Source: Deltaproteobacteria bacterium
Lineage (GTDB): Bacteria; Desulfobacterota; WTBG01; JAGOGO01
NCBI GenBank assembly: GCA_017996625.1
Contig: JAGOGO010000002.1
Location: forward strand, 1,017 to 65,016
Direction: 5' to 3'
DNA length: 64,000 nt
Numbering within the stretch: the stretch's first letter is position 1; the number at the start of each line of letters is the position of its first letter. A model generated the notes under the pieces. It saw only the letters and a program-made list of their open reading frames with translations. It searched no databases and had not been told where the DNA came from. Both the position numbers and the translations under genes were made by a program. Positions 35,830-64,000 of this stretch are shown one piece after another.

Positions 35830-35874
35830 ATACTGCGCGTTTACTGTTATCCGTTTACGTGCTGCGCGTTAAAA

Positions 35875-36209: not shown

Positions 36210-36214
36210 AACCA

Positions 36215-38598: not shown

Positions 38599-38684
38599 CG
38601 CCGGAGTGGTGAAACTGGTAGACGCAGGGGACTCAAAATCCCCCGGCCCTTGCGGCCATGTCGGTTCGATTCCGACCTCCGGCA
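38599..38684 (+). tRNA. tRNA-Leu (anticodon CAA), 86 nt, class II
   Basis: GCCGGAG TG GTGAAACTGGTAGACGC AGGGGA CUCAAAA UCCCC + long variable arm GGCCCTTGCGGCCATGTC + GGTTCGATTCCGACC TCCGGC A. The left boundary of the downstream defence island abuts its 3' end. Confidence 0.8.
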
Positions 38685-43000: not shown

Positions 43001-43180
43001 GGTGTCATCGGGCAGTTAAAAGCGGCCATTTCGCCCACCGGCTCTCTCCGCGTGCTGAAGTGTGGTACTGGGCTATACTGGGCAACGACACACCGTCGGT
43101 TCTTGAATGTCGCATCACGATAGACATTCTGGTGGTGAACCTTCTGTGTCCCAGAAGTTAAGTATTGTGTCCCCGGCATT
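43001..43180. repeat. IS21-like terminal-repeat fragment family, copy 2
   Basis: See copy 1. It lacks the 24 bp insertion present in copy 1. Confidence 0.6.
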
Positions 43181-43347
43181 TCGGACATCAGCCTGCAGTC
43201 GTTTTTAAATTCTTTCTGTGACGGGTTTGACGGGTTTATGATGGGTTTGGCGTTGTGTTTTTGGCAAAAAGGCTTCTGCCGATTGAGGTGCGCTGTCGGT
43301 CGATTATCGGTCGATTTCGTGAGCTGGTCAACTACCGTCATGCTCGT

Positions 43348-45090: not shown

Positions 45091-47039
45091 GGGATGATCT
45101 CTTTCCCAATTTTGTTCCAGCTGAATTCCTCTACTCGTTGATGCTGATCAAAAAAGTATTCTTCCAGATAGGGCTCTATTTCCATTCGCCAGATGTCCTC
45201 AAGATGATCTGAAAGCTTTTCCCGGAGAAAGAACGAAATACCGACTTCATAGTGTGGATCGCCAATCTGGTTGTTGAGCTTTTTTAAAACAGCAATAAGC
45301 CCTTCAGGATCAAAACCGTTCTTCTCATGAAAAACACGCAAGACATCATAATTTGGCTGGAGAGCAAGGAAAGCAAACCTGCGGCGAAGGGCGTGATCAA
45401 CTAATGCAATTGACCGGTCAGCGGTATTCATGGTACCGATGATTCGAACATTCTCTGGGATGCGCAGCGAGCCGCCGCTGGCAAGGGGAACCTCTTTATT
45501 GCGATACTCGAGAAGATACATCAGCTCGCCAAAGACTCGTGCCAGATTGGCCCGATTTATTTCATCAATGATCAGAACGCAACGGCCCGTACATTCTGCC
45601 GCCTTCCGGCAGAATTCAAGAAACCTGCCGGGTACCACCGGATAATCGAGCTGCCCGCCGGCATTGGCCTTGGGACGGATTCCCTGCATGAAATCCTCGT
45701 AAGCATAGGCGGGATGAAACTGCACCAGGTCACTGAAGCCATCACCACCGCTGATGAGGTGTCTCGCCAAGTGCTCGGCAATAAATGTTTTGCCGGTGCC
45801 CGGGGGCCCATAGAGAATGGCTTGCCCTTTGCGCTCGATGGCGCGGACCCAGCGCTGTAATGCGTCTTGCGGAAACCCCGTCTTAGCGGCACATTCAGAT
45901 AAAGAATACTTATCAGGTGGTATCTCAGCAGGTGGAAGAAGCGCTTCGAGCCGCTCAAACTCCCCTTTTGTGAGAGGGGTAATGGTCTTCATGAACTTAG
46001 CCTGGAGTTCTGTGGGAATGGGGACGCCGGTATCTGAAATCCGGTAATAGTCTACGGCAACAGTATGCTTGTAGTCTTTCAGTTCGGGCCGGAACCGGTA
46101 TCCGCTCTTCACTATCCCTGCAGCAAGAAGAATCTTTTTCCCCTTGTTGGTAACCAAGTGGTCTCCAGGTTTAAGGTTGATAAAGTTGAAAAGCTGCCGT
46201 GCTGCAATTTTCCGCTGTCCTTCCTTGAGATTCGGGCGTCTAGTACGATACATCTCGATAAGTTCAGCATGTGATTTTCCCGTTAGGTCGAAGGCAAGAG
46301 GGGCGAACCCTACTGCTGCAATCGAGTCTCTCTTGAAATCTCCCCACTCACGTCCCCCTTTACTTGCACCGATCTGCCAGTAAGACCCTTGTGAAGTCTT
46401 AATCAAGGACTCTATGAGATCAACACCTTCCTGCACTTCCGTCCCGTAATGCATCAGATGGTTCAGCTGGTAGAAATCCTGGCTAGGGTCGAGTTGCTTG
46501 AGATGAAGGAAGGCGTCAGATATCAGTCGGTATTTCTGCGCAGTGGAGAGTTTTTGGGTTTTCACATTGATGCCGACCTTCTGGAGAAAGTTCTCGGTCT
46601 TGTTGTTCCAGTTGGGCAGCACATCTGGATATCGAGCCTGAAGAATGGGCGCCCAGAATGACCTGGCGAAGATGGGAATCTTGAATTTCCCCTCGAGGAT
46701 CTTTTCTGCTTTTTCAAAGGGATCATCAGGGGAGTCGATGAGGTATTCAAGATTTCTTTTCACTTTGCTAAGCTGACCAGATATCCTTGGCATGCCAAGC
46801 CGAATATATGCCGGCCCCTCCAGCTTCCTGGAGTACTCGAAAACTTTATCACTCAGATCCTTTTTCGATACTTCGGAAAGGTACTTCTTACTGAGCAGCG
46901 TTGTGCGCAGATCTTCGGCAAGTTGCCGGTGCCGCTCGGCATACTCAGTCCCTTCCTTCGTATCCTGCGCACACCAGGAGGAATAGGAAGCGAGAAGCGT
47001 CTTGAGGTCCTCATCGGAAAGAATAAAAGTACTGCTCAT
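45087..47039 (-). CDS. mcrB: McrB-family AAA+ GTPase subunit with long N-terminal DNA-recognition region
   Basis: Walker A ILYGPPGTGKTF and McrB-specific box RCVLIIDEINRANLARVFGELMYLLEYR. 650 aa. Confidence 0.85.
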   Translation of the reverse strand: MSSTFILSDEDLKTLLASYSSWCAQDTKEGTEYAERHRQLAEDLRTTLLSKKYLSEVSKKDLSDKVFEYSRKLEGPAYIRLGMPRISGQLSKVKRNLEYLIDSPDDPFEKAEKILEGKFKIPIFARSFWAPILQARYPDVLPNWNNKTENFLQKVGINVKTQKLSTAQKYRLISDAFLHLKQLDPSQDFYQLNHLMHYGTEVQEGVDLIESLIKTSQGSYWQIGASKGGREWGDFKRDSIAAVGFAPLAFDLTGKSHAELIEMYRTRRPNLKEGQRKIAARQLFNFINLKPGDHLVTNKGKKILLAAGIVKSGYRFRPELKDYKHTVAVDYYRISDTGVPIPTELQAKFMKTITPLTKGEFERLEALLPPAEIPPDKYSLSECAAKTGFPQDALQRWVRAIERKGQAILYGPPGTGKTFIAEHLARHLISGGDGFSDLVQFHPAYAYEDFMQGIRPKANAGGQLDYPVVPGRFLEFCRKAAECTGRCVLIIDEINRANLARVFGELMYLLEYRNKEVPLASGGSLRIPENVRIIGTMNTADRSIALVDHALRRRFAFLALQPNYDVLRVFHEKNGFDPEGLIAVLKKLNNQIGDPHYEVGISFFLREKLSDHLEDIWRMEIEPYLEEYFFDQHQRVEEFSWNKIGKEIIP

Positions 47040-48000: not shown

Positions 48001-48131
48001 CATTTTTGCGAATTTGTACGCTTTCAAAAAAAATATTTTACTTAATAAGAGCAGAGTATTCACCTGCGAAAGGATATTTATTTTTTAGGGGGCTAAGAAA
48101 TAAATCAAGAGTAGTCTACTCAACAGCGCTA

Positions 48132-49049
48132 TCAATGTTGGCCCTCCAATAACTCGTACGCGAGAAGCACATTTTCCAGTGCCTTTTTCTGTGTCCTTGT
48201 GAGCTTTACATCCTTGTAATATTGATTTCCGTTGAGTCTTACCGTAGTTTCTTTGGAGCATGCGATAGATCTGATCATGTCGAGATCGGAAGAATCCAAT
48301 TCGATCATGCACCACTCCCACACCTCCGTGTAATTGTCTCGTTCGAAGCCTGCATACTTCTTGAATTTGTTGCCATCGACTTTTATGTCAAAAGATTCAA
48401 TAAAGAGCCACTCATCTCCATAGTACTGCACAACAAGATATAGATTGGTGAGTCGCATATCATCAGTTCTACCGAAACAAACATAAAAGCCGTTTTGAGA
48501 TCTGCTGGTTGGTGAAGTTTGGTCACAGTATAAAGTCATCTCCTCCATATCGTCTCTTTTCTTGCGCAGCTTTTTCAAAGTGTCCGTTACCCTCTTTTCC
48601 TTTTCTCTCTTGTAATAGTTAAACTTCTCTTCATAAAGCTTCTCTTCTGGATTCACTTCCATGAGCTGGGAATAGAGCATTATATTACGATCAAGATCGG
48701 TCGAAGGGACGGTCTTCACTTCCTCAAACAATCTTTTCTCTTTTTCTTCCTTCGTTTCTGCTTGCTTCGCTTCGCTTTGAGTTATAGTCTGCTTCTCTTT
48801 TGTCTGTTTGTCTGAACATTCCCGAATGAGATTTGAAAAAAACCCTATACCTGCAATAACAACGAATACGGTAAGGCAACCATGACTCGACTTCGTCGAT
48901 TTCTTCTTTTCCTTCGCATAAGGTGGCTCCTTATAGGATAGTTCCTTGCCCTGCAACATTGCACCGCAATGTTTACACTTGATAGCCTCTTGCTTTATTT
49001 CTTCTGCACAATAAGGACACTTTTTTGTTGCAGACATCCTCGCCTCCAA
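48132..49049 (-). CDS. zinc-ribbon plus single-TM protein with unknown C-terminal domain (low-GC, likely horizontally acquired)
   Basis: CPYCAEEI...CKHCGAML, then TM helix LTVFVVIAGIGFF, a K/E-rich linker and a 170 aa C-terminal domain. Noticeably A+T-rich relative to its flanks. Confidence 0.4.
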   Translation of the reverse strand: MEARMSATKKCPYCAEEIKQEAIKCKHCGAMLQGKELSYKEPPYAKEKKKSTKSSHGCLTVFVVIAGIGFFSNLIRECSDKQTKEKQTITQSEAKQAETKEEKEKRLFEEVKTVPSTDLDRNIMLYSQLMEVNPEEKLYEEKFNYYKREKEKRVTDTLKKLRKKRDDMEEMTLYCDQTSPTSRSQNGFYVCFGRTDDMRLTNLYLVVQYYGDEWLFIESFDIKVDGNKFKKYAGFERDNYTEVWEWCMIELDSSDLDMIRSIACSKETTVRLNGNQYYKDVKLTRTQKKALENVLLAYELLEGQH

Positions 49050-49079: not shown

Positions 49080-49530
49080 TTGTTAGCAGCAGTTAAAAGC
49101 GGCCGCTGAAGGGAGAATCAAAACTGGCCATTTTCGAGGATAATACCTTGTGAGAGTATAGCCACTGGTAAGGAGATGGCTGTGTGAGTAACTACTTGAA
49201 AATGGCCAAGCAGAACCTGATTCTTGCTCTCAAAACCTTAGGCTGGTCCATGCGACATATCCAATGGGAGATCGGTGTGCGCCGCGAGGCCATCTCAGAA
49301 TACGTGCGCTGCTCGGATGCAAAAGCGGCCATTTCGCCCACCGGCCCTCTGCGCATGCTGAATTGTGATACTGGTCTGTACTGAACAACGACACACCGTC
49401 GGTTCTTGAATGTCGCATCACGATAGACGCTCTGGTGGTGAACCTTCTGTGTCCCAGAAGTTAAGTATTGTGTCTCCGGACTTTCGGATTATTACATTAA
49501 GTATGGTGTCCCCAGAATTCTCCTTGCCGT
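49080..49530. mobile_element. IS21-like remnant: about 35 aa IstA-type N-terminal HTH fragment (49184-49384 ORF) followed by terminal-repeat copy 3 with three TGTGTCCC-type direct repeats
   Basis: ORF MSNYLKMAKQNLILALKTLGWSMRHIQWEIGVRREAISEYVR resembles the IS21 IstA HTH (…IK…G.S.R.IA.ELG.SRNTV.KY). Bases 49315-49530 align with copies 1 and 2. No intact transposase follows. Confidence 0.4.
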
Positions 49531-49576: not shown

Positions 49577-52500
49577 TTATAGGTAATCCTGCCACGTCAC
49601 AATCGACGATTGTGGATCAAGAAAGAAATCAGTATCCTTGAATAGGAAGTAAGGCCAATCCTTTGAAATACTTGACTCAGCTAGTCTATATCCTGCTTGG
49701 TCGTACCAGTCAATGTGATGTTTCTCCTTTACGGGGAGAATGCGCAGTTTCGGTCCCGTGTACGTTGAGAAATCATCGACAAGTGTAACGGGAATTTTCC
49801 GTTGAGTCGGATAGCGTTCGTCTTCTATCGTAGCTCTAGCATCCTTTCTTTCGAATATCCATTTATCAACTAATCTGGGTTCCAGAACAGCATCGCTGAT
49901 TTCGCCGACGTTGTTCCAATACTCCTTGGCTATAACTGCAGCATCTGGGCGCGTGTAGGCTTCTTTCCTTGTCAGGAGATGTGTAGCAATAGGATCAAGC
50001 ATACCCCAGCTTATCATATCCTTATACCATAACACCGACCACGGCAATTCGCATCGCCGCCAGCGTTCCAGAAAATCTCCATCGCCGCCATCATGCTCAA
50101 GAATAGACCCAATGGCTGATCCAAGAGCCCAATTCAATCCATAGATAAAATACTTAGATGCAAAGTCATACCAACGAGAAACACTCTTGCCTGATGGAAT
50201 GCGATCGGATCTATAAGGTGCCATCCACCAGGTCAACACATCTTGCCAAGCCACAGTGGACTTCCCGCTTGTTAGATCACGAACTCCAAAGGCTTCAATC
50301 TGGCTAATCGCCTCAACTAAGGAGGTGATATTGTTGATCCGCTCGGAATCGTTCCAAGTGACGAAGTCCACTGCCTTCGTCATGATGGTCTTGATATTAG
50401 AGAGCTTGGAGATCAGCACCTTTCCATCTCTCGGCGCCAAACCTGTATGATATAAAGCGCGGCGATATTGTTTTTCAGGATAAATGAACTCTGTTATTGC
50501 TTTTCCTCGCTGCAGAAATATCTTTTCTGCAATTGAGTCACTGAAACCCATTTTACAATGAAATGCTAGTGTGTTATGCCACAGCGACCGAAGTGAATCC
50601 TCCATATTTGCTTCGGGATTCAAGCCTTCAAGTTCGACAATACTAGTGAGCAATTGCTGATCAAGCGTATCTAAAGATCTTAAGAGATTCCCTTCCTCGC
50701 CTTGCGCCGAAGAAAATGCAGTCCGTTCAAGCCAAGCGATAAACTGATTGATATCCTTGCTCCCGGATAGGCGCGACCAGAGATTCTCAATCCGAATTGT
50801 CAAAGCATACAACGGAGAGTTTAGTCTTTTGACGTTTTTGACTTGCCGCTCGGTCATGGCGCGGATGATCTTCTCATATGCCTCTTGAGAAATCTTCTGA
50901 GCTTCTCCAAGGGCATTTGTGGAAAGTAGTACAAGTGTTTTACCCTCTGTAGAAACTCCTGGCCTTCCAGCCCGCCCCGCTACGTTAATTATCTCCCTTG
51001 AGGTCACAGGTTGTCTTGAATTCACAGGCTGTCGAAAGCGTAAGAGTGATGGTATCAGAATTGTCTCAAAAGGAAGATTCACGCCTTCAGACAGAGTTGA
51101 GGTTGCAATTACGATATTGATTACATGCTCTTCAATAAGTTCGATGAGAAGGCGAGACATCACCGGCGGCATCTTGCCATGATGAAGGACTATACCCTTC
51201 TGAAGGAGACGGTGTTCACGGGAAATCGGACCGAAGTAATCAGCGCATGAAGCCAAACAGCGAGATAAAAGGGCTTGATCCCTGCTGCGCTTTGGCTGCC
51301 CGAAGAAATCTGGATATTGGATGTCTGCCCAATCATCTGTGAGTAACCTTATGAATGTTTCAGCATATTGTTCAGGGTGCTCGGTTACTGATATAAGAAC
51401 CGAGTGTCTTTTCCCGTCCAAAGGTCGAGCGAAGTGCATGGCCGCCCATAATAGATGTGCCCGCATGCGCTTCTCAACACTATCATCTTTCTTAAAAGCC
51501 CTTATTACCGGCGGATGCGGGGGAAAAGGGTTAGCAACGTAGGGGGCACTTTCCTCCTCATTAACTAATAGACGTTGTCCATCGAGCACATCATATCGAA
51601 TAGTGGTCACTCCATTGTCACTACACCACAGTTGGCCAAAAAGTTGACGAGTACTTCTATAATCTGGGGCAATAGCGCGAGATTCATTCTTTCCTGTCAT
51701 CCAAGCTGACAGAACATCCCGGATATCTGTTGCTACAGCAGACAACGCTACGAATGTGGTATGTGGAGAACATAAGGTTTTCAGCCGAGAGACAAGGCCC
51801 TCCAACCGTAGAGAGCGGCTTTGAGCTGTGGCCAGAGCTTCGTAATCCCCTGTGAATGCAACTGAATGGGCCTCATCAATAATAACGCATGATAGCTTTT
51901 TCAGCATTGTTTGACCTAACAAGCGAAGAAGAGCATCTGCTTTTTCATGCGTCGAAATTAATACGATAGGTTGTTCTGCAATATTGGTTAGGTCCGATGG
52001 GCCAAAATCATTGCCACCATAAAGTGACGTAACTACGACGCTCGTTGCTCTGATGTTGCGCAAAGAGCGTGCAATGTTCGATTCAACCTCACTCGAAAGT
52101 GCTTTTGAGGGAGTGAGATAGAGAATCAATGGGGCGTCATTCTTGATGTGTCGATCTTCATGTCCAAACAAATGACGTAGTATCACCAATTCCGCGACAC
52201 GCGTCTTACCTGAGCCAGTAGGTGTGCAAAGAGCAAAAGAACCTTCTGATGCAATGCCAGCAATACCAGCTTGCTGAGATGGCCAAGTTAGTATCTTTCT
52301 TTCCAGAAATGCGACTCTCGCATAACGGTTTAATGCCTGACGACCGTCATCGGATACCTTTTCTGTGAGAGGTAAGAGCGATGTCCAAAGAGCCTCGTTC
52401 TTAAACTCTCGTGCGATTGCAGCGAAAATAACAGAAAGCAACCAAGAGAACCTATCACTATCGTAACGTAATGCGCTGGCGACCTTCTCAAGAGTCTTTA

Positions 52501-53152
52501 TAGCCGAGTCGATCCGCACCTCATCTCCCCACCTCATCCATGCTGTAAGTACTCCGATCGCGCGTAATAGCTGATTGAGAATCACAATACCTGTCTGATG
52601 TTTTGTTGAATCGCCTTTACCACCATGTCGCCAAAAGTCTAGCAAAAGTCGTTGTGCTCGAAAAAAATCCGCACGAAGAAGAGCTGTAAGAATCTGTGAT
52701 GTCTTATCCGGTAGAGTATGTTCAGACAATATTCCTAAAGCTCTCGCGGGGTACCCAGCTAATTGGTAAATGGATGCAGCAAGGAGTACCACTGGAATTG
52801 GGAAATCGACAGGTGAACTTGTCGCCGCCCACTCAAATATCTCTGCAGCGCGGCGCAGGTACCTACGGCTATCGGACATATCTGGAGCAGCCATTCCAGC
52901 AATCAAAAGCTTTTCACCCTCGGTTAAACGAACAATGAGTTCATCATTTGTCCATGAAGGCAGTCCCTTCGCACCAGCGCGGAGCCTTGTATGTTGGGCA
53001 TAGAGGCGTGCAATACCCCGACTGAGCGATGGTCCGGCCACGCGCTCTGCAAAGTCGTGAATCAAGTCCAAGCTGCCTTCAGCCATATATTTCATTTGGA
53101 GCCATCCATCCTCTCGTAGAGTGAAGAGATGAGGATATGAACGCCAGGGCAA
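49577..53152 (-). CDS. large SF2 DExH helicase, HamB-like (Hachiman-type helicase partner of DUF1837)
   Basis: Motif I CTPTGSGKT, II VIIDEAHS, VI VAGRAGRPG. 1191 aa with long N- and C-terminal extensions. The start overlaps the upstream DUF1837-like gene by 61 bp. The helicase call is secure; the Hachiman assignment is inferred from gene pairing. Confidence 0.5.
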   Translation of the reverse strand: MPWRSYPHLFTLREDGWLQMKYMAEGSLDLIHDFAERVAGPSLSRGIARLYAQHTRLRAGAKGLPSWTNDELIVRLTEGEKLLIAGMAAPDMSDSRRYLRRAAEIFEWAATSSPVDFPIPVVLLAASIYQLAGYPARALGILSEHTLPDKTSQILTALLRADFFRAQRLLLDFWRHGGKGDSTKHQTGIVILNQLLRAIGVLTAWMRWGDEVRIDSAIKTLEKVASALRYDSDRFSWLLSVIFAAIAREFKNEALWTSLLPLTEKVSDDGRQALNRYARVAFLERKILTWPSQQAGIAGIASEGSFALCTPTGSGKTRVAELVILRHLFGHEDRHIKNDAPLILYLTPSKALSSEVESNIARSLRNIRATSVVVTSLYGGNDFGPSDLTNIAEQPIVLISTHEKADALLRLLGQTMLKKLSCVIIDEAHSVAFTGDYEALATAQSRSLRLEGLVSRLKTLCSPHTTFVALSAVATDIRDVLSAWMTGKNESRAIAPDYRSTRQLFGQLWCSDNGVTTIRYDVLDGQRLLVNEEESAPYVANPFPPHPPVIRAFKKDDSVEKRMRAHLLWAAMHFARPLDGKRHSVLISVTEHPEQYAETFIRLLTDDWADIQYPDFFGQPKRSRDQALLSRCLASCADYFGPISREHRLLQKGIVLHHGKMPPVMSRLLIELIEEHVINIVIATSTLSEGVNLPFETILIPSLLRFRQPVNSRQPVTSREIINVAGRAGRPGVSTEGKTLVLLSTNALGEAQKISQEAYEKIIRAMTERQVKNVKRLNSPLYALTIRIENLWSRLSGSKDINQFIAWLERTAFSSAQGEEGNLLRSLDTLDQQLLTSIVELEGLNPEANMEDSLRSLWHNTLAFHCKMGFSDSIAEKIFLQRGKAITEFIYPEKQYRRALYHTGLAPRDGKVLISKLSNIKTIMTKAVDFVTWNDSERINNITSLVEAISQIEAFGVRDLTSGKSTVAWQDVLTWWMAPYRSDRIPSGKSVSRWYDFASKYFIYGLNWALGSAIGSILEHDGGDGDFLERWRRCELPWSVLWYKDMISWGMLDPIATHLLTRKEAYTRPDAAVIAKEYWNNVGEISDAVLEPRLVDKWIFERKDARATIEDERYPTQRKIPVTLVDDFSTYTGPKLRILPVKEKHHIDWYDQAGYRLAESSISKDWPYFLFKDTDFFLDPQSSIVTWQDYL

Positions 53153-54012
53153 TGGAATTCGACTGATGTTAGTTCACGCATCCCAGTATATCGTTCGTGG
53201 GGAGAGTCTGTTGGAATCCATGTCTTCCTAAGCTTGGGGCAATCACCACAAACATACACACTCAAGTCGCAACGAACGGAAAGCTTCCTCGATGCATATT
53301 GCCACCAATATTTCTGCAATGCGGAGATCCAAGTTCGGCTGTACTTGTCATCACGATAATCCTTCAACGCATCGATCAGTCGGAGCAAGTCAATTGGTCG
53401 AGTCACGGCCTGACTGAGTTTCTCATGATTATCGGATATCAGTTGAGACGAATGATCTCTGGTACACTTCGCTTCGCATGCCAGCCAAGCTATGATATCC
53501 CCATCCTTATTTAGCGCAAAAGCTAGGCCGTCATCGCCTGTCCGCCCTATTACTTGCCTCGACCACTCATCAGTTTGTTTCATGTATTCGAGCTGCTGGA
53601 AAGCAATTACATGAGTGCGAAAAAGGTAGACCGGAACTTTCCATTCGTATTCACCATCTCCTGCATAGTATTCGGCGACAATTCCGGCGATAATCTCGCC
53701 AAAGAAAGCTTGAAGAGCGATATTGCCCAGCTTGTGTGGATATCCAAAGGCCGGGTCGATTTCAGTATCATAATGGAGAGGATGTAGTGAGTTTTCAAGT
53801 GGTGCCCGCAAAGATTGGCGAGCACCATCATGGGCGTGGTCAATATATGTGAAAAGTTCATCTAGTTCGGGTTGAGTAACGGTCCGTTTAGCGCGAATAA
53901 GCAGATGGCAATAGCGAGGGGATTTTTTGTTATGAGTCTTCTCTACCGTTAGCCAAGAATTTAGCAGTCTCAGTCGCGGATGTTCAGCAGAAACTATTGG
54001 GTCGGATTGCAT
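53092..54012 (-). CDS. HamA-like (DUF1837-like) PD-(D/E)xK nuclease-fold protein
   Basis: LNKDGDIIAWLACEAKCT gives a D...EAK nuclease motif. 306 aa, translationally coupled to the helicase. Confidence 0.4.
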   Translation of the reverse strand: MQSDPIVSAEHPRLRLLNSWLTVEKTHNKKSPRYCHLLIRAKRTVTQPELDELFTYIDHAHDGARQSLRAPLENSLHPLHYDTEIDPAFGYPHKLGNIALQAFFGEIIAGIVAEYYAGDGEYEWKVPVYLFRTHVIAFQQLEYMKQTDEWSRQVIGRTGDDGLAFALNKDGDIIAWLACEAKCTRDHSSQLISDNHEKLSQAVTRPIDLLRLIDALKDYRDDKYSRTWISALQKYWWQYASRKLSVRCDLSVYVCGDCPKLRKTWIPTDSPHERYTGMRELTSVEFHCPGVHILISSLYERMDGSK

Positions 54013-54490: not shown

Positions 54491-54832
54491 CTATGGTTCC
54501 TTCAGAGACAAGACTTCTATCTCACCTGATAGGGTATCAAAAAGGAAATGATCAACCTTGTCGAGTTCTCCCGGTATTAACATCGGCGCCCTTTTCAACA
54601 TTGCCACCCACGAGGAGTCTGCTACTTTGAAGGTGTTTCCAAGTCTCTTGAGTCTAAAGTATTTTTTAAATCGAAACGCTACACAATGCTTAAACAAAAC
54701 CAGCCACTTTTTGTTTTTACTGATGTCCTCAAGGCATATAGAAAGATGATTGTCGGATTTTAAAATAATCTCGTGGCTGGCAAGATTATCGATACGAGAC
54801 AAAGGCGTCTTCCACACTTCTATTGAATCCAT
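54491..54832 (-). CDS. hypothetical 113 aa protein downstream of retron RT
   Basis: ORF only, 175 bp from the RT stop. Confidence 0.25.
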   Translation of the reverse strand: MDSIEVWKTPLSRIDNLASHEIILKSDNHLSICLEDISKNKKWLVLFKHCVAFRFKKYFRLKRLGNTFKVADSSWVAMLKRAPMLIPGELDKVDHFLFDTLSGEIEVLSLKEP

Positions 54833-55007: not shown

Positions 55008-55934
55008 CTAGATGTTGCTCAATACTCGTTTGCCGTATTTTTGTTCCATCCGTTCGACAAAATTCGGTTCGATAGAGCGGGCAAATGCAAGCATGCCGCG
55101 GAGTGAACTTTTTTCCTGGGGAGTGAGATGTCCCGTTATAAGATGATGTATCTGCGCTCTAATACGGCGCTTCTTTTCTCGGCCAAGTGACACACGGCCT
55201 GCATTAGAGAGAACTAATCCGGTTACCATCCGACGATGAGCTTTTGACCCGAAAATTGTTTTCTTCTGATTAATTTGCAGCTTAGGAAATGGCAGTTGTT
55301 GTATCACTTGAAGAACCCTATTGAGAACTTCTGATCTAGCTGCCTTCTCCATCATGGAAAAAGTCATATCATCGGCATACCTGGTATATGTGATACTACG
55401 TTGGCAACAATAGCTTTCAATTTCACTATCAAACCTATGCATGATGGCGTTGGACAAATAAGGAGAGGATGGAGCACCGACTGAAAGCTGAAGGTTGTGA
55501 ATTCGTTTAGGATACCAAAAAAGAATCCTTACAAGCAACTGTAGATCGAGCTCATCGAGGTCCAGGTTGTTGAGTTCTCTTATGTACTGAATAAAATCAT
55601 CTCCCTTGATTGAAGGAAAGAAATCCACGAAATCAAGCTTCAGCAAATAAGGCTTGGCGACATGAAGTTCAGAGTTGTTTAATATATTCTTTGCCTTTAT
55701 ATAGGCAGTTGCGGACGGATGAATTGGCAATCGTGGAAATAAATTCTCAATAACCCAGTACTGGAGCCTTTTAACCTCCTTAGCTGGTTGGGCTATGGTG
55801 CGCATACCAGTTCCAGATCGCTTTGGTACCTCATAGACCTTATAGCGATAAGGTGCACTTCTAATTAAGTATTCCAAACGTTCCTTTGGCAGAAGTAAAT
55901 CTTTAGACAATTTGGCTAAGAGTGAGACTACCAT
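55008..55934 (-). CDS. retron-type reverse transcriptase
   Basis: All retron RT signatures are present: PKRSGTGMRTIAQPAKEVKRLQYWV, LKLDFVDFFPSI, SVGAPSSPYLSNAIM, YTRYADDMTFS, VTGLVL. 308 aa. Confidence 0.85.
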   Translation of the reverse strand: MVVSLLAKLSKDLLLPKERLEYLIRSAPYRYKVYEVPKRSGTGMRTIAQPAKEVKRLQYWVIENLFPRLPIHPSATAYIKAKNILNNSELHVAKPYLLKLDFVDFFPSIKGDDFIQYIRELNNLDLDELDLQLLVRILFWYPKRIHNLQLSVGAPSSPYLSNAIMHRFDSEIESYCCQRSITYTRYADDMTFSMMEKAARSEVLNRVLQVIQQLPFPKLQINQKKTIFGSKAHRRMVTGLVLSNAGRVSLGREKKRRIRAQIHHLITGHLTPQEKSSLRGMLAFARSIEPNFVERMEQKYGKRVLSNI

Positions 55935-55947
55935 AAAAAAGTCCGAT

Positions 55948-56916
55948 CTAACTCGTTTGCCTAAAATGTGAAATCAATGCCTTGTATTTTTGCTTATTGT
56001 GGTGGATGTAATGATCATTAAACATTATTGTCCAACGATCCCGATCCATGCCACGAACGTTTGCCGTCTGTCTATAGGCAATCGCGAGCCGAGGTTCGTG
56101 CGCGCAAGTGCGGTAATAGACATTGTGGCCGTATTGCTTTTTTTCAATCAGCTTCAAGGATTTCAGTAAACTCAAATATTTGCTTAGTTGATATCGTTCA
56201 TACCGTATATCCAGCCATTCGAGAAATTTGTTTAATTCATCTAAAGATGCGAGCTGCACAGTCTCCAGCAGATCGAGCATTAGTAGCATGACATGCCCTA
56301 ACTTATCTCTGCTGAACGATTCGGACTTTGGCAATTCCAAAAGAATTTTCATTACTGTCTCTGCGAGGTCTTCCACATCAAAGAAATCATCCTGCGTGAC
56401 CGACTCGTCATTATTATCCTTGTTCCTCCAAGTATATACTGTAACTGGGCTATCTTTGCCGTTCTTTTCTGCAATCTTCATAATATGCAGGATGGGTCCT
56501 CGCCAAATAAAAGATTTCTTTTCCCAATGATCTTTGTGCATGACTACCAGAAGTCTTTCCCGAATAGTATCCAGTACTGCAAACGAACCGAGCTCAGCAA
56601 TTGAGCCAGGGCTCTCCGAGAAAATTATTGTCAAAGCAGATAGCTCAGCCAAGTCTCTTTCAAAGTCAAGAAGGTCGGTGTATTCTGAGTGGTAAAAATA
56701 GTCGAAAACATCCTCTGCTAATACAATGTCCTGGCGATACATGTATTTGCTCTGACAGATATATTTGCAAAAGGCATCGCGACAAGAGTGCGGGGCTTTG
56801 TGGGAGTCTGTGATTTCACCACCACACAGGAAAACGAAGGAAGGCAACTTGACGACACGGCTCTTCGTCAAGTCAATTGATGATATCCATTCTCTGTATA
56901 TTGGATCTATTTCCAA
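55948..56916 (-). CDS. retron accessory/effector protein with N-terminal nucleoside 2-deoxyribosyltransferase-like (NDT) fold
   Basis: VFLCGGEI... and ESPGSIAELGSFAVL resemble the NDT family D.G[TS].FE.G.A catalytic-Glu motif. 322 aa with a TTG start. It lies 14 bp upstream of the RT, the Sen2-like arrangement msr/msd - effector - RT. Confidence 0.45.
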   Translation of the reverse strand: MEIDPIYREWISSIDLTKSRVVKLPSFVFLCGGEITDSHKAPHSCRDAFCKYICQSKYMYRQDIVLAEDVFDYFYHSEYTDLLDFERDLAELSALTIIFSESPGSIAELGSFAVLDTIRERLLVVMHKDHWEKKSFIWRGPILHIMKIAEKNGKDSPVTVYTWRNKDNNDESVTQDDFFDVEDLAETVMKILLELPKSESFSRDKLGHVMLLMLDLLETVQLASLDELNKFLEWLDIRYERYQLSKYLSLLKSLKLIEKKQYGHNVYYRTCAHEPRLAIAYRQTANVRGMDRDRWTIMFNDHYIHHNKQKYKALISHFRQTS

Positions 56917-57197: not shown

Positions 57198-59972
57198 TTA
57201 TTTAACCGGTACCCTCCCGCTCAAACCCAAATCTCCGAGTATGAGCTTGAGGTCTGACTCGAAGCTCTGTGCCTGGTTCTTCTCAACCGTTACGGAAAAA
57301 CAGATACTGATCTTCAAGTCCGATCCGCTGCGCAGCTTCGGGAGAATCTTTGTCCCCAGTCGATTCCAGACTTCAGGCGGAATCTCACCGGAAATCTGGA
57401 ATGTGCGGGTTCCTGCACCAGGTATAACCTCCGGCTCGGTTCCTTCTCCTGACTGAGTGCCGATCACATCTATAACTTCTGGTCGAGGTTCCGGACGCTG
57501 GGTGGGCTCAGGTTCATGAGCCGGCCCTGAGCTTGACTTTAACGCCTTGGCCTTCGATTTCAGAAGAAGAAATACTCCCTGATCGAAAATGATTTCTTCT
57601 GACGGGACTGCCTCCTGAAACCAGACCCGATCATAGGAGCCGTCTGTCTTCTGACCTGAGGCGAATCCAAAGTCCCCCTTATCCACCCAAGCAGCTATTC
57701 TGCTGCGCAGGACAGTGTCTGGATCAAGGAGGCGCGTCAGTGATCCATTAAGGAAGCTTTGCCGGAGACTGGTCAGAGGCCAGGCACCGGAGTCTCTCAA
57801 GGCAGGGGGCCAATTGCGTTCAACATAGCTGGCTCCTACTGATTCATTCAGCAAAGCCTGCGACTTGAGCGCAGTGATAACCCGGCCGCACAGAGTCTCT
57901 CCACTGCTGGAGTGCCCAGCTCCGAGGTCAATAGTCTTTAATCCGTTCGGCTCCTTGCTGTCAGCAATGACTACAAAGCGATAGCCTCCCCATACTTCGT
58001 CGTGGGCTGCTTCTTCGCCTTCAGTCGCCTTTGTCCGCACCTCCAATCTATCTTCAGGACTGAATTCTCCTCCCAGTGTCTTCTCTCTGATTTCCTTATC
58101 TACTCGTTTCCAGGCCAACCATAGTTCAATCTTGTCACGCAAATCGCGGCCGGGCTTTTTCACACACCACACAAGCGAGCCCGGATAGAGCCTGGGTGAC
58201 TTTCCCCTTTGCTTGGTCCATTCGGCAATTTGATCAACAAGGCTCCCCTTACCCGTCCATTCGCATGCAGGGTCAAGCACCACAAGCGTCAGCTTGGGTG
58301 TATCTTGAATCTCGGTGCCGTCGGATGGAAACTGGACAAGGGGAATGGTTGCTCCACGCTCAAACTCTTTTTGAACAACAGCGCGCATGGCCGGTTTGAC
58401 ATCGTTCTCATCATCCAGGGACGCGCGTCGGTCGTTCACAACCTTTTTCATCGTCGGCTGGTAGCCGATTCTGAATCCGTCGGAACCGATGCGTCGAATG
58501 AAATATGATTTGTCTTCGAGAGCGAAAGCGGCATTGTCCACCGACGTGGTATCGATCTCCGGCTCACCAAGGGCAAAGCGCAATTCGGGCAGGTGCGCCA
58601 CTTTATCCACCTGGCCACCGGAAGACTCAAAGAGAATCGCAGTGGCTACCCGTCGATGAATATCGCGCAATGCCGCTTTTGAGTCAGCATCGAGGGCGCG
58701 GGCATGAGAATGATCGCCGGCAATATCAGCATCAATAGCGGCCTCAAGGCGTGATTCCCCAAGTTGGCCGAGAACAACACTGCGGAATTCCGCCACCTCC
58801 AAAGGAGCCGATCCAAGAGTGATAAGCGCCTCGTTGCGCGCGTCATAGAAATTAGTGCGGCTAGCCCAGGAAATCCACTGGGCAAGCATGGCAAGGGTTC
58901 CACGCGTCTGCTGGTACTGCGGCAATGCCTGCCATTTTCTCTGGAAAACCGACAGGGTCGCGGGGTGAAATGGATAACACGTCTCAAATCGCTGCTGCAA
59001 ATATTCTTTGGCTTTTGCTTCCGTGGCTGCGGTGTCAACGGCCATCCATTCAGGCGGAAGCTGGGCACGGCGTTGGAAGCACCATTCGGCGTAAGTCTTC
59101 GCCACAGTCTTGCGAACTCGGTCTTTCCCTATGTCCTCAAACAACCGCCGGCGAATCACTTCGCTTATTTCAGTTTCGTCGTTTGCGATGAGATCCTTGG
59201 CCACACGTCGAACCACCTTTGTAATCTTATTCTGCCATGCCATGTCCCAGTCGGTCATTTCCACCTGGCTTCGCGGCAAACTTATGACTGCTGCTCCGTG
59301 AGTAGTACCCGTAGTTGCAACCGTCAAGTTCTGAATAAAGGAATGGAACTGATCAGCCATATCTCTATGCCGATTCAAGAAGTTCAGTACTTCATCGAAG
59401 AGAATGAGCACCGGGGCTTCAGCAGCCTTAAAAATCCGATCAAGCGCTTCGGTACCTGGGGGCGTATTCCTTGCCGATGTTCCGAGCTCCCTGACTCCCT
59501 TATCACCCGCAAGCTGCCGAGCAATATCAATCCACGGTGTCTCGCGACCTTCTTGCGGATCCCAAGCATTGCCGACAAATGCAGCGACTTTCGCATGCGG
59601 CACTGCGCTTATTGTTGCCTCATATACAAGATCAGCGACACCAGTATACTCGGCTGCCTTTTCACCGCTACTCATCAAATGGTAAAGAGCTGCAAGTGTG
59701 TGCGTCTTGCCGCCACCGAACTGAGTAATAAGGGTCATGACGGGTGCCGTATTCGCTGTCTCGCCCGAAAGCCGACGCATCACCATGCCGGTGTGCTCTC
59801 TGAGTGCCCGAGTGAAGCAGGTACGAGCAAAGAATTGCTTCGGATCGCGATAATCTTCCGGAGCAGTTTTGGCAATCACCTGTTCCAGATGAATGGCAAA
59901 CTCGTCCGGGTTGAACGAACGCCCTTGTCTGACTTCTTTACGAGGGGTAGTGCTTTTGTACCACGGGTCCAT
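57198..59972 (-). CDS. DUF499-family P-loop ATPase (COG1483-like), 924 aa
   Basis: Walker A TQFGGGKTHTLAALYHL, Walker B PVLILFDEVLN. The large size and the pairing with a DUF1156 methyltransferase match the DUF499 context. The DUF499 assignment itself is from memory of the family. Confidence 0.55.
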   Translation of the reverse strand: MDPWYKSTTPRKEVRQGRSFNPDEFAIHLEQVIAKTAPEDYRDPKQFFARTCFTRALREHTGMVMRRLSGETANTAPVMTLITQFGGGKTHTLAALYHLMSSGEKAAEYTGVADLVYEATISAVPHAKVAAFVGNAWDPQEGRETPWIDIARQLAGDKGVRELGTSARNTPPGTEALDRIFKAAEAPVLILFDEVLNFLNRHRDMADQFHSFIQNLTVATTGTTHGAAVISLPRSQVEMTDWDMAWQNKITKVVRRVAKDLIANDETEISEVIRRRLFEDIGKDRVRKTVAKTYAEWCFQRRAQLPPEWMAVDTAATEAKAKEYLQQRFETCYPFHPATLSVFQRKWQALPQYQQTRGTLAMLAQWISWASRTNFYDARNEALITLGSAPLEVAEFRSVVLGQLGESRLEAAIDADIAGDHSHARALDADSKAALRDIHRRVATAILFESSGGQVDKVAHLPELRFALGEPEIDTTSVDNAAFALEDKSYFIRRIGSDGFRIGYQPTMKKVVNDRRASLDDENDVKPAMRAVVQKEFERGATIPLVQFPSDGTEIQDTPKLTLVVLDPACEWTGKGSLVDQIAEWTKQRGKSPRLYPGSLVWCVKKPGRDLRDKIELWLAWKRVDKEIREKTLGGEFSPEDRLEVRTKATEGEEAAHDEVWGGYRFVVIADSKEPNGLKTIDLGAGHSSSGETLCGRVITALKSQALLNESVGASYVERNWPPALRDSGAWPLTSLRQSFLNGSLTRLLDPDTVLRSRIAAWVDKGDFGFASGQKTDGSYDRVWFQEAVPSEEIIFDQGVFLLLKSKAKALKSSSGPAHEPEPTQRPEPRPEVIDVIGTQSGEGTEPEVIPGAGTRTFQISGEIPPEVWNRLGTKILPKLRSGSDLKISICFSVTVEKNQAQSFESDLKLILGDLGLSGRVPVK

Positions 59973-60082: not shown

Positions 60083-61252
60083 CTATTTTAATTCTCGCCG
60101 CTTGATATACTCTGCGAATAAAGGATCGGCGATGCGATACTGACCGCGTCCGATTCGCTCAACTAATCCTTTTTCCGTAAGCCGCTTAAGCACTTCCGCA
60201 GCGTTCTTTACCTTTGCGCTGCGCTTCTCAAGGGTTCGCGGGCTCAGAACGGCATCATTTGTAGCCAGCACTTTGAGCGCTGTCATTTCTTGAACACTGG
60301 CACGCCCCACCATCCCTTCAAATTGCGCATCAGCCAACGCCAGAAGTGTATGGTAAAGTGCGGTTTCCCAATTTTCCATGGAAACCCTGCCTTTGACTTG
60401 CTGATCAAAAAGGGCTTCGCAGAGTGCCTGTACTTCGAAAACATGCCCACGAGTGATATCGAAAATATTTTCTTTCACACCTTTCTCAAAAACGACTCCC
60501 GATTCTCGCAGGGAATCATCGATAAGCCTGAAGGTCTCGGTCTTCGCAAAAGAGCCCAAAGGCCTGCGAGGCATAAACAATCGCCCGAGAGGATGATCCC
60601 GTACCAGATACGGTTTCCATGCTTGCTCGATTGAACTAATGACCATGAGGATTTTTGTTTGTCCAAGAATACGCTCATCAGTAAGCACATTCCTCAAGAG
60701 GGTAAGCTGCTGTCCCTCTGTCGAGAGATTGTGGACATCGTCAATCAATATGACCAATGAGCGCGCTCCATGCCTTTCGGCGTGTTCATGCAGCCGCATC
60801 AAGCCATCGCGCAGTACTAACTGCGGGTCTTGATTCGCAGAGGCATTTCGCCACTGCAACTGAAATCCAAAGCCGAGCACACTCGCACCTGCACCTTCAA
60901 CACGCTTTGCAAAAGGCTCCTTCTTCTCTGGCAGAATAGGCAAATCAGACGCCGTCATATCGAGCACATGGCGAGCGAAATCCGTGAGGCCTTCCTGAGC
61001 GGCAAATGCCCGGGTACTGAAAAGGAGAGCCCACGCTCCCTCGGTTCGAGCGACCAACTTCATCTGCCGGAGAAGAACCGTCTTTCCGATGCCCCATGTC
61101 CCCGTGATAACGTAGTGTTGAAATCTGCCATGGAAAGCGTTGCTCAACCGTTGTTTGAAGAACGCTACTTCCTCATCCCGGCCAATGAAAACTTTTGGGT
61201 CCATGCCGGATCTTGCTGTAAACGGATTGACAAGCATCTTCTCTCCTCTCAT
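60083..61252 (-). CDS. AAA ATPase of the archaeal-ATPase (PF01637-like) type with C-terminal wHTH
   Basis: Walker A VITGTWGIGKTVLLRQ, Walker B LVILIDDVHNL. The C-terminus LTEKGLVERIGRGQYRIADPLF is a wHTH. Confidence 0.55.
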   Translation of the reverse strand: MRGEKMLVNPFTARSGMDPKVFIGRDEEVAFFKQRLSNAFHGRFQHYVITGTWGIGKTVLLRQMKLVARTEGAWALLFSTRAFAAQEGLTDFARHVLDMTASDLPILPEKKEPFAKRVEGAGASVLGFGFQLQWRNASANQDPQLVLRDGLMRLHEHAERHGARSLVILIDDVHNLSTEGQQLTLLRNVLTDERILGQTKILMVISSIEQAWKPYLVRDHPLGRLFMPRRPLGSFAKTETFRLIDDSLRESGVVFEKGVKENIFDITRGHVFEVQALCEALFDQQVKGRVSMENWETALYHTLLALADAQFEGMVGRASVQEMTALKVLATNDAVLSPRTLEKRSAKVKNAAEVLKRLTEKGLVERIGRGQYRIADPLFAEYIKRRELK

Positions 61253-61258
61253 GCTACC

Positions 61259-63999
61259 TCACCTAGGCACAGCCAGCAGCATTGCATCGAGCAATCGTTT
61301 CTCCTCACTCCCCTTCGGATAGAGCGCCGAGAGGGCATTAGCCAAACGGAGAAAATCCGGGCTGCGCTCCTGCTCGGCCTTAACCAGCGCCCGTAAGGCA
61401 TTGGTCTGTCCGCCAGACTGCAGCAGCATCGCAGCATGCACGCGATCAAGCGTGGTAATATTTCGCTGGTTCTGAAAATCGGCAGCAGCCGGGTCCAAGA
61501 CAACTCCTTTCCGCTGCCCTCGAACGCGAAGCTTCGGTGCCTGCTCTTTCTCCAATTCAGGAAAGAGAACACGCTGCAGGTTTTTCATAGGCTGCTTCTC
61601 GATGATATCAGCAGAGGCTCTAGCGCCTTCTTCGCCAAAAAGTTGCTTGCTGCGGTCGGCAATGCCCAAGAGCCTGATCACGCCCTTCTCAGTCTTGATT
61701 ATGCGGTTCTCCCACTTGGGAAGATCAATCCCGAGCGGCTGCGCAAAGCGGCGGACTACATCGAAGACGAGACTATATCCTTTAGCCTTCCCTTTCGGAG
61801 TAGGTTCTTCATCATCCTCGTCAAGCTCTTCTTCCTCTTCAACATCTTGGCTTTTACCTTTGCTCTTTTCATTTTTGTCTTCAGCATTGGTGGCCTGCAA
61901 CGTCCATAGGAATAAGGCTGTTAAACGCGCATCCTCTTCCAATACACCTGCCATACCATTTCGGGCACGAGCTTCCTCAGTGCCGAGAATCTGTTCCAGT
62001 GCCGTGCGGCCCACTACCTCCCAGACCTTCTCCAGGTACTCAGCAAGCTTGACCTCGCGACCTTCGGCAGTCTCCACCTTTGAGTACCGGCTGAAGATTT
62101 CGAGAGCCGGTCCGATACAGGCGAACACCAGATCCGCCCCTCGAATCCCTTCGCCCTGCAAGCACTCCATCCAGTCCCCTACCCGATTTGGAAGTTCACG
62201 AAGCACCTCCGACCAATCGCCCACGGATGCGTCCTCTGGACGTGGACGACAGACGAGGTGGACACTGGTGGCGAGGGCAGCTGTGTCGCGTGCCAGTAGT
62301 CGAGCTCCCCTCTCTGTTGCAATGGGCCAGGAACCTGTGATTGCCCAACCGCCGCGGACGATGCCTGAAAGAAGTGCTTCCCATCCTTCGGTTGTCTTGT
62401 GCGCAAACACTACAGAGGCAATCCCATCCTCCTTCAGTACTCGCCGTCCTTCTGAGAAAGCCTGAGCCATGGCGTCTTCGTAGTACTGTCTGTCTTTGAC
62501 ACGCCCCGTGGGGTCACGATCCTTTTGAGATTGGATGACCTCGGCAGCTTTGGGAGTGAGGGGGTTGGATGCCTCATAAGGGTCTCGCAGTAGCGGGTCT
62601 CTCGCCATCATCCGTTTCAGCCACACGAAGAAGAAATCGGAGAGGTCAGAATAAGGGATTGCGTCATAGTACGGCGGATCAGTGAACCAAACTGTAGCCG
62701 AGTCATTTGGCAACGGATGATTTGTGGCGTCTGCCAGCTGCGTTTGTCCCATCTTGGGTATCCCACTTGCGATCTGCGAAACAGCTCCCACCAGTTCGTC
62801 AATTGCGTTTCCCACCCCCCCGCGAACTCAGATAGCGGATAGAACTCCGGAAAATCCCATGACATAGGCAGCGCATGTCTGCCGAACGCCCCAGCGACTG
62901 TCTGACTGCCTTTGTGCCAAAAGGCGAAAGCATTGCAATGTCGGATGGTTTTGCCAAGCACGAGAGACGGAAGTCCGCTTTTCCCCACTATTACTCCAAG
63001 CAGTGTGTGTACCAACGCCTGTCGAAGTGAAAATAGGTCTCCAAATACCCGTGCCCCATAGCGTGTGACCGCGGAAAGACCACGAGCATTTGCAGAAGGG
63101 CGCTGTGGATCAATGGGTTCATCTGGCAATGGGCATGGGCCTTTCTTGCCCGCCTTTTCCCATTGGTGAACAAGAAGATTCATCCGCTGATGTGCCTTCC
63201 ACACCGCTTGATAGTCTTGTGTTGTGGGTTGACGGTACTTTCGCTCGCGGCTATTATTGCACATCGTAACAACCGCTAGCAGTCTCGCCCCACCAATACG
63301 GTTGCCATTTGTATCAAAAATCACGTCTGGCCGGCCACCTTGCTCGGTGATTTGCTCACGAACGCGTTCTGATGAAAGGACAGCACCACAGGCAGGGCAC
63401 GTCGCCCTGCCATCCTTTATCGTTCTTTGCGCGATCTCTTGATGTTGGCCGCGTGCTGACGCCGCTATCTCGAACTCTATCTCGGGTCTTTTGCCATGCT
63501 TACGAATGACCGTGTGTCGAAGGCCACACTGCCAGCCACTGCTTTGGCAGAAGAGAAATGACCGCGCAAGCGGGATTTCCGCTCCGCAGTTGGGGGACTC
63601 GCATTTGACCGTTCTCGCCCAAAGGTAGGCTATCGGCGCGGCCCCGTCAGGGTCCTTGGGATAAAACTCAGCGAGTTCCTTCTCAGCCTGTTTCTTGATC
63701 TCACCGCCGACCCGGCGCAGTTCCTCGGCAAGCTCTGGTCCATGGCGTGGAATATCTTCCAGCAGGACTTTGAGAATGAGGCAGGCTACTGGATTGAGAT
63801 CGCTGGCAAATGCTTCACAGCCCAGTCTCAGAGCTTCCAGTGGGATCGATCCACCACCTGCAAAAGGGTCAACAACGAGCGGCGGTTCCTCACCATGCGC
63901 AGCCTTTACTAGCGTTCGTCCTGCTTCGGCATACATTGGGTTGCATGACAAATCCCAGTTTGCGAAGTCGCCTATAAACTCAAGCAATGCTTTCCTCAA
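61259..63999 (-). pseudogene. DUF1156-type Zn-ribbon DNA methyltransferase (COG1743-like) split by a -1 frameshift at a G7 homopolymer. N-part 62617..63999 (motif I, runs off window), C-part 61259..62815 (DPPY)
   Basis: N-part has VVDPFAGGGSIPLEA (FxGxG SAM motif) and CxxC pairs (CESPNCG, CPACG). C-part has WFTDPPYYD (motif IV). The two ORFs overlap by 199 bp in different frames. The frame change maps exactly to GGGGGGG at 62815-62821 (minus strand). One additional G would give the continuous product ...YPLSEFAGGVGNAIDELV.... Confidence 0.6.
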
Positions 64000-64000
64000 G

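What the first reader, a model, noticed from the sequence alone, without database searches (positions are those of the whole stretch)
62805..62835. Methyltransferase frame broken exactly at a G7/C7 homopolymer (possible phase-variation switch)
The N-terminal ORF (motif I) and the C-terminal ORF (DPPY) overlap by 199 bp. The N frame through the overlap encodes W/R-rich nonsense while the C frame encodes conserved sequence. The frames converge at GGGGGGG (minus strand, 62815-62821). One extra G yields the continuous ...EFAGGVGNAIDELV.... Homopolymer slippage in methyltransferase genes is the classic phasevarion mechanism. It could equally be a sequencing error or a fixed inactivating mutation. 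If fixed, it leaves a DUF499 ATPase without its modification partner.
Basis: seen in the sequence. Interest (0 to 1): 0.65.

Follow-up and report, generated by a model that had tools for sequence, protein, structure and literature searches.

The report
Slippery poly-G switch in defence methyltransferase
A DNA methyltransferase gene of an anti-phage system is broken in this genome by the loss of one G from a run of eight, and other public assemblies of the same strain carry 8 G (intact) or 9 G (broken), so this is most likely a natural on/off slippage site of an already familiar kind.

Summary
The minus strand has G7 at 62815-62821. It splits a DUF1156/HmaB-type N6-adenine DNA methyltransferase into an N-terminal fragment (motif I and zinc-finger region) and a C-terminal fragment (DPPY). 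Adding one G restores the frame.

One carries G9, which is also out of frame. Only the window carries G7; it matches NCBI MBP7321439.1 from a 'Deltaproteobacteria bacterium' MAG.

Across about 184 kb of window-versus-contig alignment, this tract is the only indel site. It is the only G/C run of 7 or more in 64 kb. It is absent at the homologous site in 82 relatives, one of which encodes the same A-G-G-V peptide without a run.

Best reading: a hypermutable homopolymer, ON at G8 and OFF at G7 or G9, by slipped-strand mispairing, as in BREX/Pgl pglX and Type III mod genes. Read-level heterogeneity and reversibility are untested, and tract-specific assembly error is not excluded.

The locus also lacks the HmaA helicase-nuclease that relatives have.

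This is a new member of a known kind, of moderate interest.

The parts
62815..62821 (-). Poly-G tract, G7 in this window. G8 is the in-frame allele and G9 also occurs. In the G8 allele it is read as GCG GGG GGG GTG, encoding Ala-Gly-Gly-Val.
62617..64000 (-). N-terminal fragment of the DUF1156/HmaB-type methyltransferase. The gene start lies about 270 nt beyond the window end. It contains motif I (DPFAGGGS, 63847-63870) and Cys-rich zinc-finger-like elements (63577-63603 and 63379-63399). After the tract it reads 65 out-of-frame codons and stops at 62617-62619. It equals NCBI MBP7321439.1 (P0122, 551 aa).
61259..62815 (-). C-terminal part of the methyltransferase in the frame of the intact protein. 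It carries the catalytic TDPPYY motif (62666-62683) and the conserved C-terminal region.
60083..61252 (-). AAA_16 ATPase of 389 aa with a weak C-terminal match to AbiEi-type HTH models. It sits in the variable 'cargo' slot between the methyltransferase and DUF499 genes.
57198..59972 (-). DUF499 / HmaC AAA+ ATPase, 924 aa, intact.
   Evidence: (HmaC E=2.3e-93)

Best explanation
The tract is a hypermutable poly-G run inside the coding sequence of a DUF1156 (HmaB-type, BREX-related) N6-adenine DNA methyltransferase.

The modal length is G8, which is in frame and gives a 1004-aa enzyme. Slipped-strand mispairing during replication adds or removes one G. G7 (this window) and G9 (another assembly) shift the frame between the SAM-binding/target-recognition half and the DPPY catalytic half, so neither allele can make an active enzyme. 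The window therefore carries a natural OFF variant of an ON/OFF switch.

Shown: the tract, the frame consequences, three length alleles in otherwise identical DNA, and that the tract is specific to this lineage.

Inferred: that the changes arise by replication slippage, that they are reversible and frequent, and that OFF removes methylation and probably also system activity, as for PglX in BREX.
For: Alleles. Eleven assemblies of one strain cover the tract.
- G8 occurs in nine: JGI 3300010356, 3300010346, 3300010353 (inferred, not read directly), 3300009690, 3300009685 and 3300025861; ENA ERZ27257442 and ERZ27257434; and NCBI GCA_035342615.1.
- G9 occurs in ENA ERZ27257465.
- G7 occurs only in the window.
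- The database fragments P0122 (551 aa) and P0124 (491 aa) equal the N-terminal fragments predicted for G7 and G9.

Specificity. About 184 kb of window-versus-contig alignment over 25 contigs shows no other indel. This span includes an A8 run at 48026-48033 and several A7/T7 runs. Only 5 SNP sites were seen.

Composition.
- It is the only G/C run of 7 or more in 64 kb, and G/C runs are depleted overall.
- GGG is the rarest Gly codon, and 0 of 54 other Gly-Gly pairs are GGGGGG.
- The chance of encoding A-G-G-V as G8 from codon usage is about 0.006.

Lineage specificity.
- None of 80 genome relatives has a run at the homologous site, and only one G/C run of 7 or more occurs in 246 kb of their methyltransferase genes.
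- L109 encodes the same A-G-G-V peptide as GCC GGA GGG GTC.
- The tract sits in the most variable, indel-tolerant segment of the protein alignment.

The G8 protein retains all columns that are invariant across the 37-homologue alignment.

Precedent: a homopolymeric tract in BREX brxX/pglX has been proposed to drive phase variation (PMC6326788). Phasevarions of Type I/III methyltransferases work by slipped-strand mispairing (PMC12707154).
Against: - All the evidence comes from assembled consensus sequences. No reads were available, so within-population heterogeneity and reversibility are not shown.
- How independent the assemblies are is unknown. Some ENA, Logan, TPA and NCBI records may be re-assemblies of the same JGI runs.
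- One assembly (L010) has a C-to-A change 10 nt upstream of the tract, at window 62831. This could mean that the neighbourhood is prone to sequencing error.
- Only one such tract is visible in 64 kb, so there is no sign of a genome-wide contingency-locus strategy.
- The locus lacks HmaA, so the system may be decaying and the OFF alleles may simply be neutral.
Confidence: 0.65

Rival explanations
1. Sequencing or assembly artefact. The organism always has G8, and the G7 (window) and G9 (ERZ27257465) calls are homopolymer miscalls in low-coverage or badly polished consensus.
For: - G7 and G9 are each seen in only one assembly.
- Several contigs of this strain are low coverage, for example cov about 3 in the SPAdes contig names.
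- An isolated substitution lies 10 nt from the tract in L010.
- Homopolymers are the classic site of indel miscalls.
Against: - The window has no other indel against 25 contigs over about 184 kb, including A8 and A7/T7 runs. It is therefore not a generally homopolymer-error-prone assembly.
- Two independent miscalls in opposite directions at the same site would be needed.
- The window contig is long (67 kb), which suggests adequate coverage.
- From general knowledge, short-read consensus errors at 8-mers are rare.
Confidence: 0.2
2. Ordinary inactivating mutation in a decaying system. Having lost the HmaA helicase-nuclease, the remaining methyltransferase is under relaxed selection. The G7 lineage is a dead-end pseudogene rather than one state of an adaptive switch.
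For: - No HmaA lies in the locus. The order is catalase, IS200-type TnpA, HerA-like DUF87, then the methyltransferase.
- Relatives at 58-71% identity have the canonical HmaA-cargo-HmaB-cargo-HmaC order.
- HmaA alone was the active defence component in the only experimental study (PMC11232893).
Against: - Nine of 11 assemblies keep the intact G8 allele with every family-invariant residue.
- No other disabling mutation is seen in the methyltransferase, AAA_16 or DUF499 genes.
- Two different frameshift alleles at the same tract and nowhere else indicate a site-specific high mutation rate. That is what defines a contingency tract, whatever the selection acting on it.
Confidence: 0.12
3. Programmed recoding. 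The G7 gene is expressed as a full-length protein by ribosomal frameshifting or transcriptional slippage on the G run.
For: Homopolymer runs can support transcriptional slippage (general knowledge). Nothing specific was found here.
Against: - The in-frame G8 allele is the majority form, so no recoding is needed.
- No relative has a run or a frameshift at this site.
- From general knowledge, efficient transcriptional slippage usually needs A/T runs of 9 or more.
Confidence: 0.02

Closest known systems
Homopolymer (poly-G) phase variation of the BREX/Pgl methyltransferase pglX (brxX)
   Same: - A G-run lies inside the coding sequence of the N6-adenine methyltransferase of a BREX-type defence system, and length changes switch the system on and off (PMC6326788).
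- DUF1156 methyltransferases are described as close homologues of the Type-3 BREX methyltransferase (PMC12839542).
   Different: - The gene here is a DUF1156/HmaB-type methyltransferase of a DUF499-centred BREX-related system, not PglX.
- There is no PglZ, BrxA, BrxB or BrxL.
- Switching here is inferred from differences between assemblies, not from phenotype.
Phasevarions: SSR-controlled mod/hsdM genes of Type III and Type I R-M systems (Haemophilus, Neisseria, Helicobacter, Campylobacter)
   Same: Slipped-strand mispairing in an intragenic repeat toggles a DNA methyltransferase between in-frame and out-of-frame states (PMC12707154).
   Different: - Those occur in host-adapted pathogens, often with tetra- or pentanucleotide repeats and many contingency loci per genome.
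- Here it is a single G8 tract in an uncultured Thermodesulfobacteriota population.
- No regulon effect is known.
Hma system (HmaA-HmaB-HmaC), also called the Type-1 DUF499-centred BREX-related (BR) system
   Same: - The methyltransferase matches PADLOC HmaB (E=1.6e-80) and the ATPase matches HmaC (E=2.3e-93).
- The methyltransferase-to-DUF499 gene order, with a cargo gene in between, is shared with 70 or more relatives.
   Different: - No HmaA SNF2 helicase-nuclease is present.
- In its place are a HerA-like DUF87 ATPase and an IS200-type transposase next to a catalase gene.
- No phase variation has been reported for this family in the papers searched.

Membership tests
SSR-mediated phase-variable (contingency) gene | Homopolymeric or short tandem repeat tract of slippage-prone length (7 or more) inside the ORF or promoter | tested here: met
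   G7 in the window, G8 or G9 elsewhere, inside the coding sequence
SSR-mediated phase-variable (contingency) gene | Changes in tract length move the gene between in-frame (ON) and out-of-frame (OFF) states | tested here: met
   G8 gives an intact 1004-aa protein. G7 gives a 551-aa fragment and G9 a 491-aa fragment.
SSR-mediated phase-variable (contingency) gene | Tract-length polymorphism among otherwise identical genomes | tested here: met
   Three lengths occur in 11 assemblies. It is the only indel site in about 184 kb of comparisons. The evidence is at consensus level only.
SSR-mediated phase-variable (contingency) gene | High-frequency, reversible switching within a clonal population | not testable with these tools
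   Needs read pile-ups, amplicon sequencing or culture. No reads are available here.
Hma / Type-1 DUF499-centred BREX-related system | DUF1156-type N6-adenine methyltransferase (HmaB) | tested here: met
   PADLOC HmaB E=1.6e-80. Pfam DUF1156 E=3.9e-23 on the full-length P0121. The FxGxG and DPPY motifs are present.
Hma / Type-1 DUF499-centred BREX-related system | DUF499 AAA+ ATPase (HmaC) in the same operon | tested here: met
   57198-59972. PADLOC HmaC E=2.3e-93 and Pfam DUF499 E=6.4e-15.
Hma / Type-1 DUF499-centred BREX-related system | SNF2 helicase-nuclease (HmaA) adjacent to the methyltransferase | tested here: not met
   Upstream of the methyltransferase, in the longer contigs of the same strain, are a HerA-like DUF87 gene, an IS200 Y1 transposase and a catalase gene. 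Relatives do have HmaA. The only helicase nearby is the HamB of a separate Hachiman system.
Phasevarion (phase-variable regulon) | The methyltransferase ON/OFF state changes genome methylation and the expression of multiple genes | not testable with these tools
   Needs methylome and transcriptome data from G8 and G7/G9 populations.

The most novel reading that the evidence does not exclude
This would be the first natural-population example of a phase-variable DUF1156/Hma (BREX-related) methyltransferase. It occurs in an uncultured anaerobic Thermodesulfobacteriota. The locus has lost the helicase-nuclease effector but keeps the methyltransferase, the DUF499 ATPase, a HerA-like ATPase and an AAA_16 ATPase. 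On this reading the switch toggles either a helicase-independent form of BR defence or a genome-wide epigenetic state (a phasevarion) in an environmental, non-pathogenic bacterium.
Probability: 0.15. Interest if true: 0.6.

Novelty: new member of a known kind. Interest (0 to 1): 0.42.

Why it matters
Homopolymer switches in defence methyltransferases let a population hedge between phage resistance and its costs: autoimmunity, barriers to DNA uptake, or global methylation effects. They are well documented in pathogens and in BREX/Pgl, but not, in the papers searched, for the widespread DUF499/DUF1156 (Hma, BREX-related) systems or for uncultured anaerobes. Here the ON and two OFF alleles can be read directly from public metagenome assemblies. 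Those same data sets could therefore measure switching in situ.

On the practical side, the split gene in the NCBI MAG (MBP7321439.1 and MBP7321438.1) should be read as one methyltransferase with a variable tract, not as two genes.

Tried and rejected
- Megablast of the methyltransferase region against E. coli genomes and plasmids gave no match.
- Exact-pattern scans for the tract with a flexible G count in genome contigs and metagenome contigs gave no match. The pattern itself works on the window and on fetched loci, so those collections simply do not hold this strain.
- Exact-protein look-ups of the 450-aa C-terminal fragment and of the 305-aa ORF at 48132-49049 found nothing on record, because the start-codon choice differs.
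- A generally homopolymer-error-prone (long-read-like) assembly is rejected. There are no other indels in about 184 kb, including A8, A7 and T7 runs.
- Programmed frameshifting is rejected, because the in-frame G8 allele is the majority and relatives have no run there.
- An ancestral tract conserved across the family is rejected. It is absent in 82 relatives.
- I considered the helicase at 49577-53152 as the missing HmaA. It is rejected because it matches Hachiman HamB, with a retron lying between it and the Hma genes.
- An Rfam gathering scan of 38000-64000 found only a tRNA.
- A further cluster look-up for G5, G6, G10 and G11 alleles was not run. The 90%-identity cluster has only five members, and all five are accounted for.

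Full report
**Observation**

The minus strand reads ...GAGTTCGC GGGGGGG TGGGAAAC..., with the seven G at 62815-62821.

Upstream of the tract the frame is open to the window edge at 64000. After the tract it continues for 65 W/R-rich codons to a stop at 62617-62619. The conserved C-terminal frame (61259-62815, 518 aa) begins in the tract. The two frames overlap by 199 bp.

Adding one G, or deleting two, gives one uninterrupted 913-aa frame reading ...EFAGGVGNAIDELV....

**What the gene is**

- The repaired protein matches PADLOC HmaB (E=1.6e-80) and DUF1156_MTase. The full-length form has the Pfam DUF1156 N-terminal domain.
- Motif I (DPFAGGGS) and two Cys clusters lie before the tract. TDPPYY lies after it. 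The frameshift therefore separates the SAM-binding/recognition half from the catalytic half.
- Downstream on the same strand are an AAA_16 ATPase (60083-61252) and a DUF499/HmaC ATPase (57198-59972; HmaC E=2.3e-93).
- These systems are described as Hma, or as DUF499-centred BREX-related systems. Their methyltransferase is a close homologue of the Type-3 BREX methyltransferase (PMC12839542; PMC11232893).

**The key result: three tract lengths in the same strain**

Exact-sequence and neighbour look-ups then recovered many contigs of the same strain from JGI, ENA, Logan and NCBI.

Eleven assemblies cover the tract.
- Nine carry G8 and the intact 1004-aa protein (P0121 = HNR13179.1, from a Thermodesulfobacteriota MAG). 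For JGI 3300010353 this is inferred from the contig records, because the sequence itself was not shown.
- ENA ERZ27257465 carries G9.
- Only the window carries G7.

The database fragments P0122 (MBP7321439.1, 551 aa, 'Deltaproteobacteria bacterium') and P0124 (491 aa) are exactly the N-terminal products predicted for G7 and G9. The window therefore matches the NCBI MAG annotated with MBP7321436 to MBP7321439.

**Controls**

- Across 25 distinct contigs and about 184 kb of alignment to the window there is no indel other than at this tract. That span includes an A8 run (48026-48033) and several A7/T7 runs. Substitutions occur at only five sites. The window is therefore not a generally error-prone assembly, and the tract is uniquely unstable.
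- It is the only G/C run of 7 or more in 64 kb. A first-order Markov model expects about 5. Runs of 6 or more number 8 against about 21 expected.
- GGG is the rarest Gly codon (16%). None of 54 other Gly-Gly pairs is GGGGGG. The codon-usage chance of writing A-G-G-V as G8 is about 0.006.

**Relatives**

- In 80 relatives from genome contigs (40-65% identity), the homologous site never carries a run. Only one G/C run of 7 or more occurs in 246 kb of their methyltransferase genes.
- Of the two close relatives whose DNA was fetched, the 66%-identity one (L109) encodes the same A-G-G-V as GCC GGA GGG GTC. The 71%-identity one (L110) has A-G-S-L.
- The tract sits in the most variable, gap-rich segment of the family alignment. 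Such a place should tolerate Gly insertions.
- The G8 protein keeps every family-invariant residue.

**Interpretation**

The most economical reading is slipped-strand mispairing at a lineage-specific poly-G tract. G8 is the ON state. G7 (this window) and G9 are OFF states.

This is the same mechanism as the homopolymeric tract proposed for BREX brxX/pglX (PMC6326788). It also matches the SSR-controlled Type I/III methyltransferases known as phasevarions (PMC12707154).

[quoted passage not shown] That step is inference.

**Limits**

- All the evidence is from consensus assemblies. The independence of the assemblies is unknown. No reads were available.
- One assembly (L010) has a C-to-A change at 62831, 10 nt from the tract. 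This could hint at locally raised sequencing error.
- I therefore give the artefact reading about 0.2.

A second caveat concerns the system itself. In this strain the methyltransferase is preceded by a HerA-like DUF87 gene, an IS200-type transposase and a catalase gene. Relatives instead have the canonical HmaA(SNF2+NOV_C)-cargo-HmaB-cargo-HmaC order. The nearby helicase at 49577-53152 is the HamB of a separate Hachiman system. The Hma membership test thus fails on the helicase. The remnant could be under relaxed selection, so that OFF alleles may be neutral rather than adaptive. I give this about 0.12.

Programmed recoding is very unlikely, because G8 is the majority allele and no relative has a run or a frameshift at the site.

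**Novelty and verdict**

Homopolymer switching of defence methyltransferases is a known kind. I found no report of it for DUF1156/Hma (BREX-related) methyltransferases in the papers searched.

This is a new member of a known kind and of moderate interest. Its main value is that the ON and OFF alleles are already visible in public metagenomes, so the question can be settled from existing reads.

Noticed in passing
window 55008-56916 (-): A type II-A retron lies immediately downstream of the DUF499 gene. It comprises an NDT-like effector (55948-56916; PADLOC NDT_II-A E=7.9e-73; Pfam STM3845 in the contig tables) and a reverse transcriptase (55008-55934; RT_II-A E=7e-120). The msr/msd RNA was not located. 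Rfam gathering found nothing there.
   Followed up: partly
window 49577-54012 (-): A Hachiman-like pair. The helicase at 49577-53152 (1191 aa) matches PADLOC HamB (E=4.2e-68). The overlapping upstream 306-aa ORF (53092-54012) has no hit and is presumably HamA. A 113-aa ORF of unknown function lies at 54491-54832.
   Followed up: partly
window 43864-47039 (-): A McrBC-type pair: an AAA_5 McrB-like protein of 650 aa (45087-47039) and McrC of 408 aa (43864-45090). Two other assemblies (L103, L105) share three SNPs in McrC, at 44427, 44439 and 44455. This points to a second haplotype of the strain.
   Followed up: partly
window 40763-40920, 43018-43185, 49320-49488 (+): A non-coding repeat of about 160 nt is present three times in the same orientation, at 92-96% identity, between defence gene cassettes. 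Its predicted fold is no more stable than shuffled sequence (z = 0.63). There is no Rfam match. It could be a MITE- or REP-like element, or a cassette boundary.
   Followed up: partly
window 38600-38684 (+) and 32848-38126 (-): tRNA-Leu(CAA) lies at the inner edge of the defence island. Next to it is a LexA / Y-family polymerase (IMS) / DnaE2-like cassette, named from the Pfam labels in the contig tables. The island appears to run from this tRNA to a catalase gene beyond the window end.
   Followed up: no
L007 1-3627 (upstream of window end 64000): In longer contigs of the same strain the methyltransferase is preceded by three genes: a HerA-like DUF87 ATPase of at least 496 aa; an IS200-type Y1 transposase; and a catalase gene on the opposite strand. 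There is no HmaA helicase-nuclease. Relatives carry HmaA plus variable cargo genes in the inter-gene slots: Fic, OLD-like, PIN, RT UG21, PDC-M24B and a GajB-like helicase.
   Followed up: partly
window 62831 (L010 position about 3295): JGI 3300009685 (L010, protein P0123) has a single C-to-A change (Ser to Tyr) 10 nt upstream of the poly-G tract. It is one of only five SNP sites in about 184 kb of comparisons. It is either a real variant or a sequence-context error next to the homopolymer.
   Followed up: partly
window 61569-62066 and about 64255 (L001/L002 starts): Many independent short contigs of this strain break at the same places inside the methyltransferase gene: 61569-61575, 61655, 61917 and 62066. 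These lie in or near the region encoding the acidic E/D-rich stretch of the protein. Two contigs also start within 1 nt of each other, 17-18 nt into the methyltransferase ORF. This suggests repeats or strain heterogeneity there.
   Followed up: no
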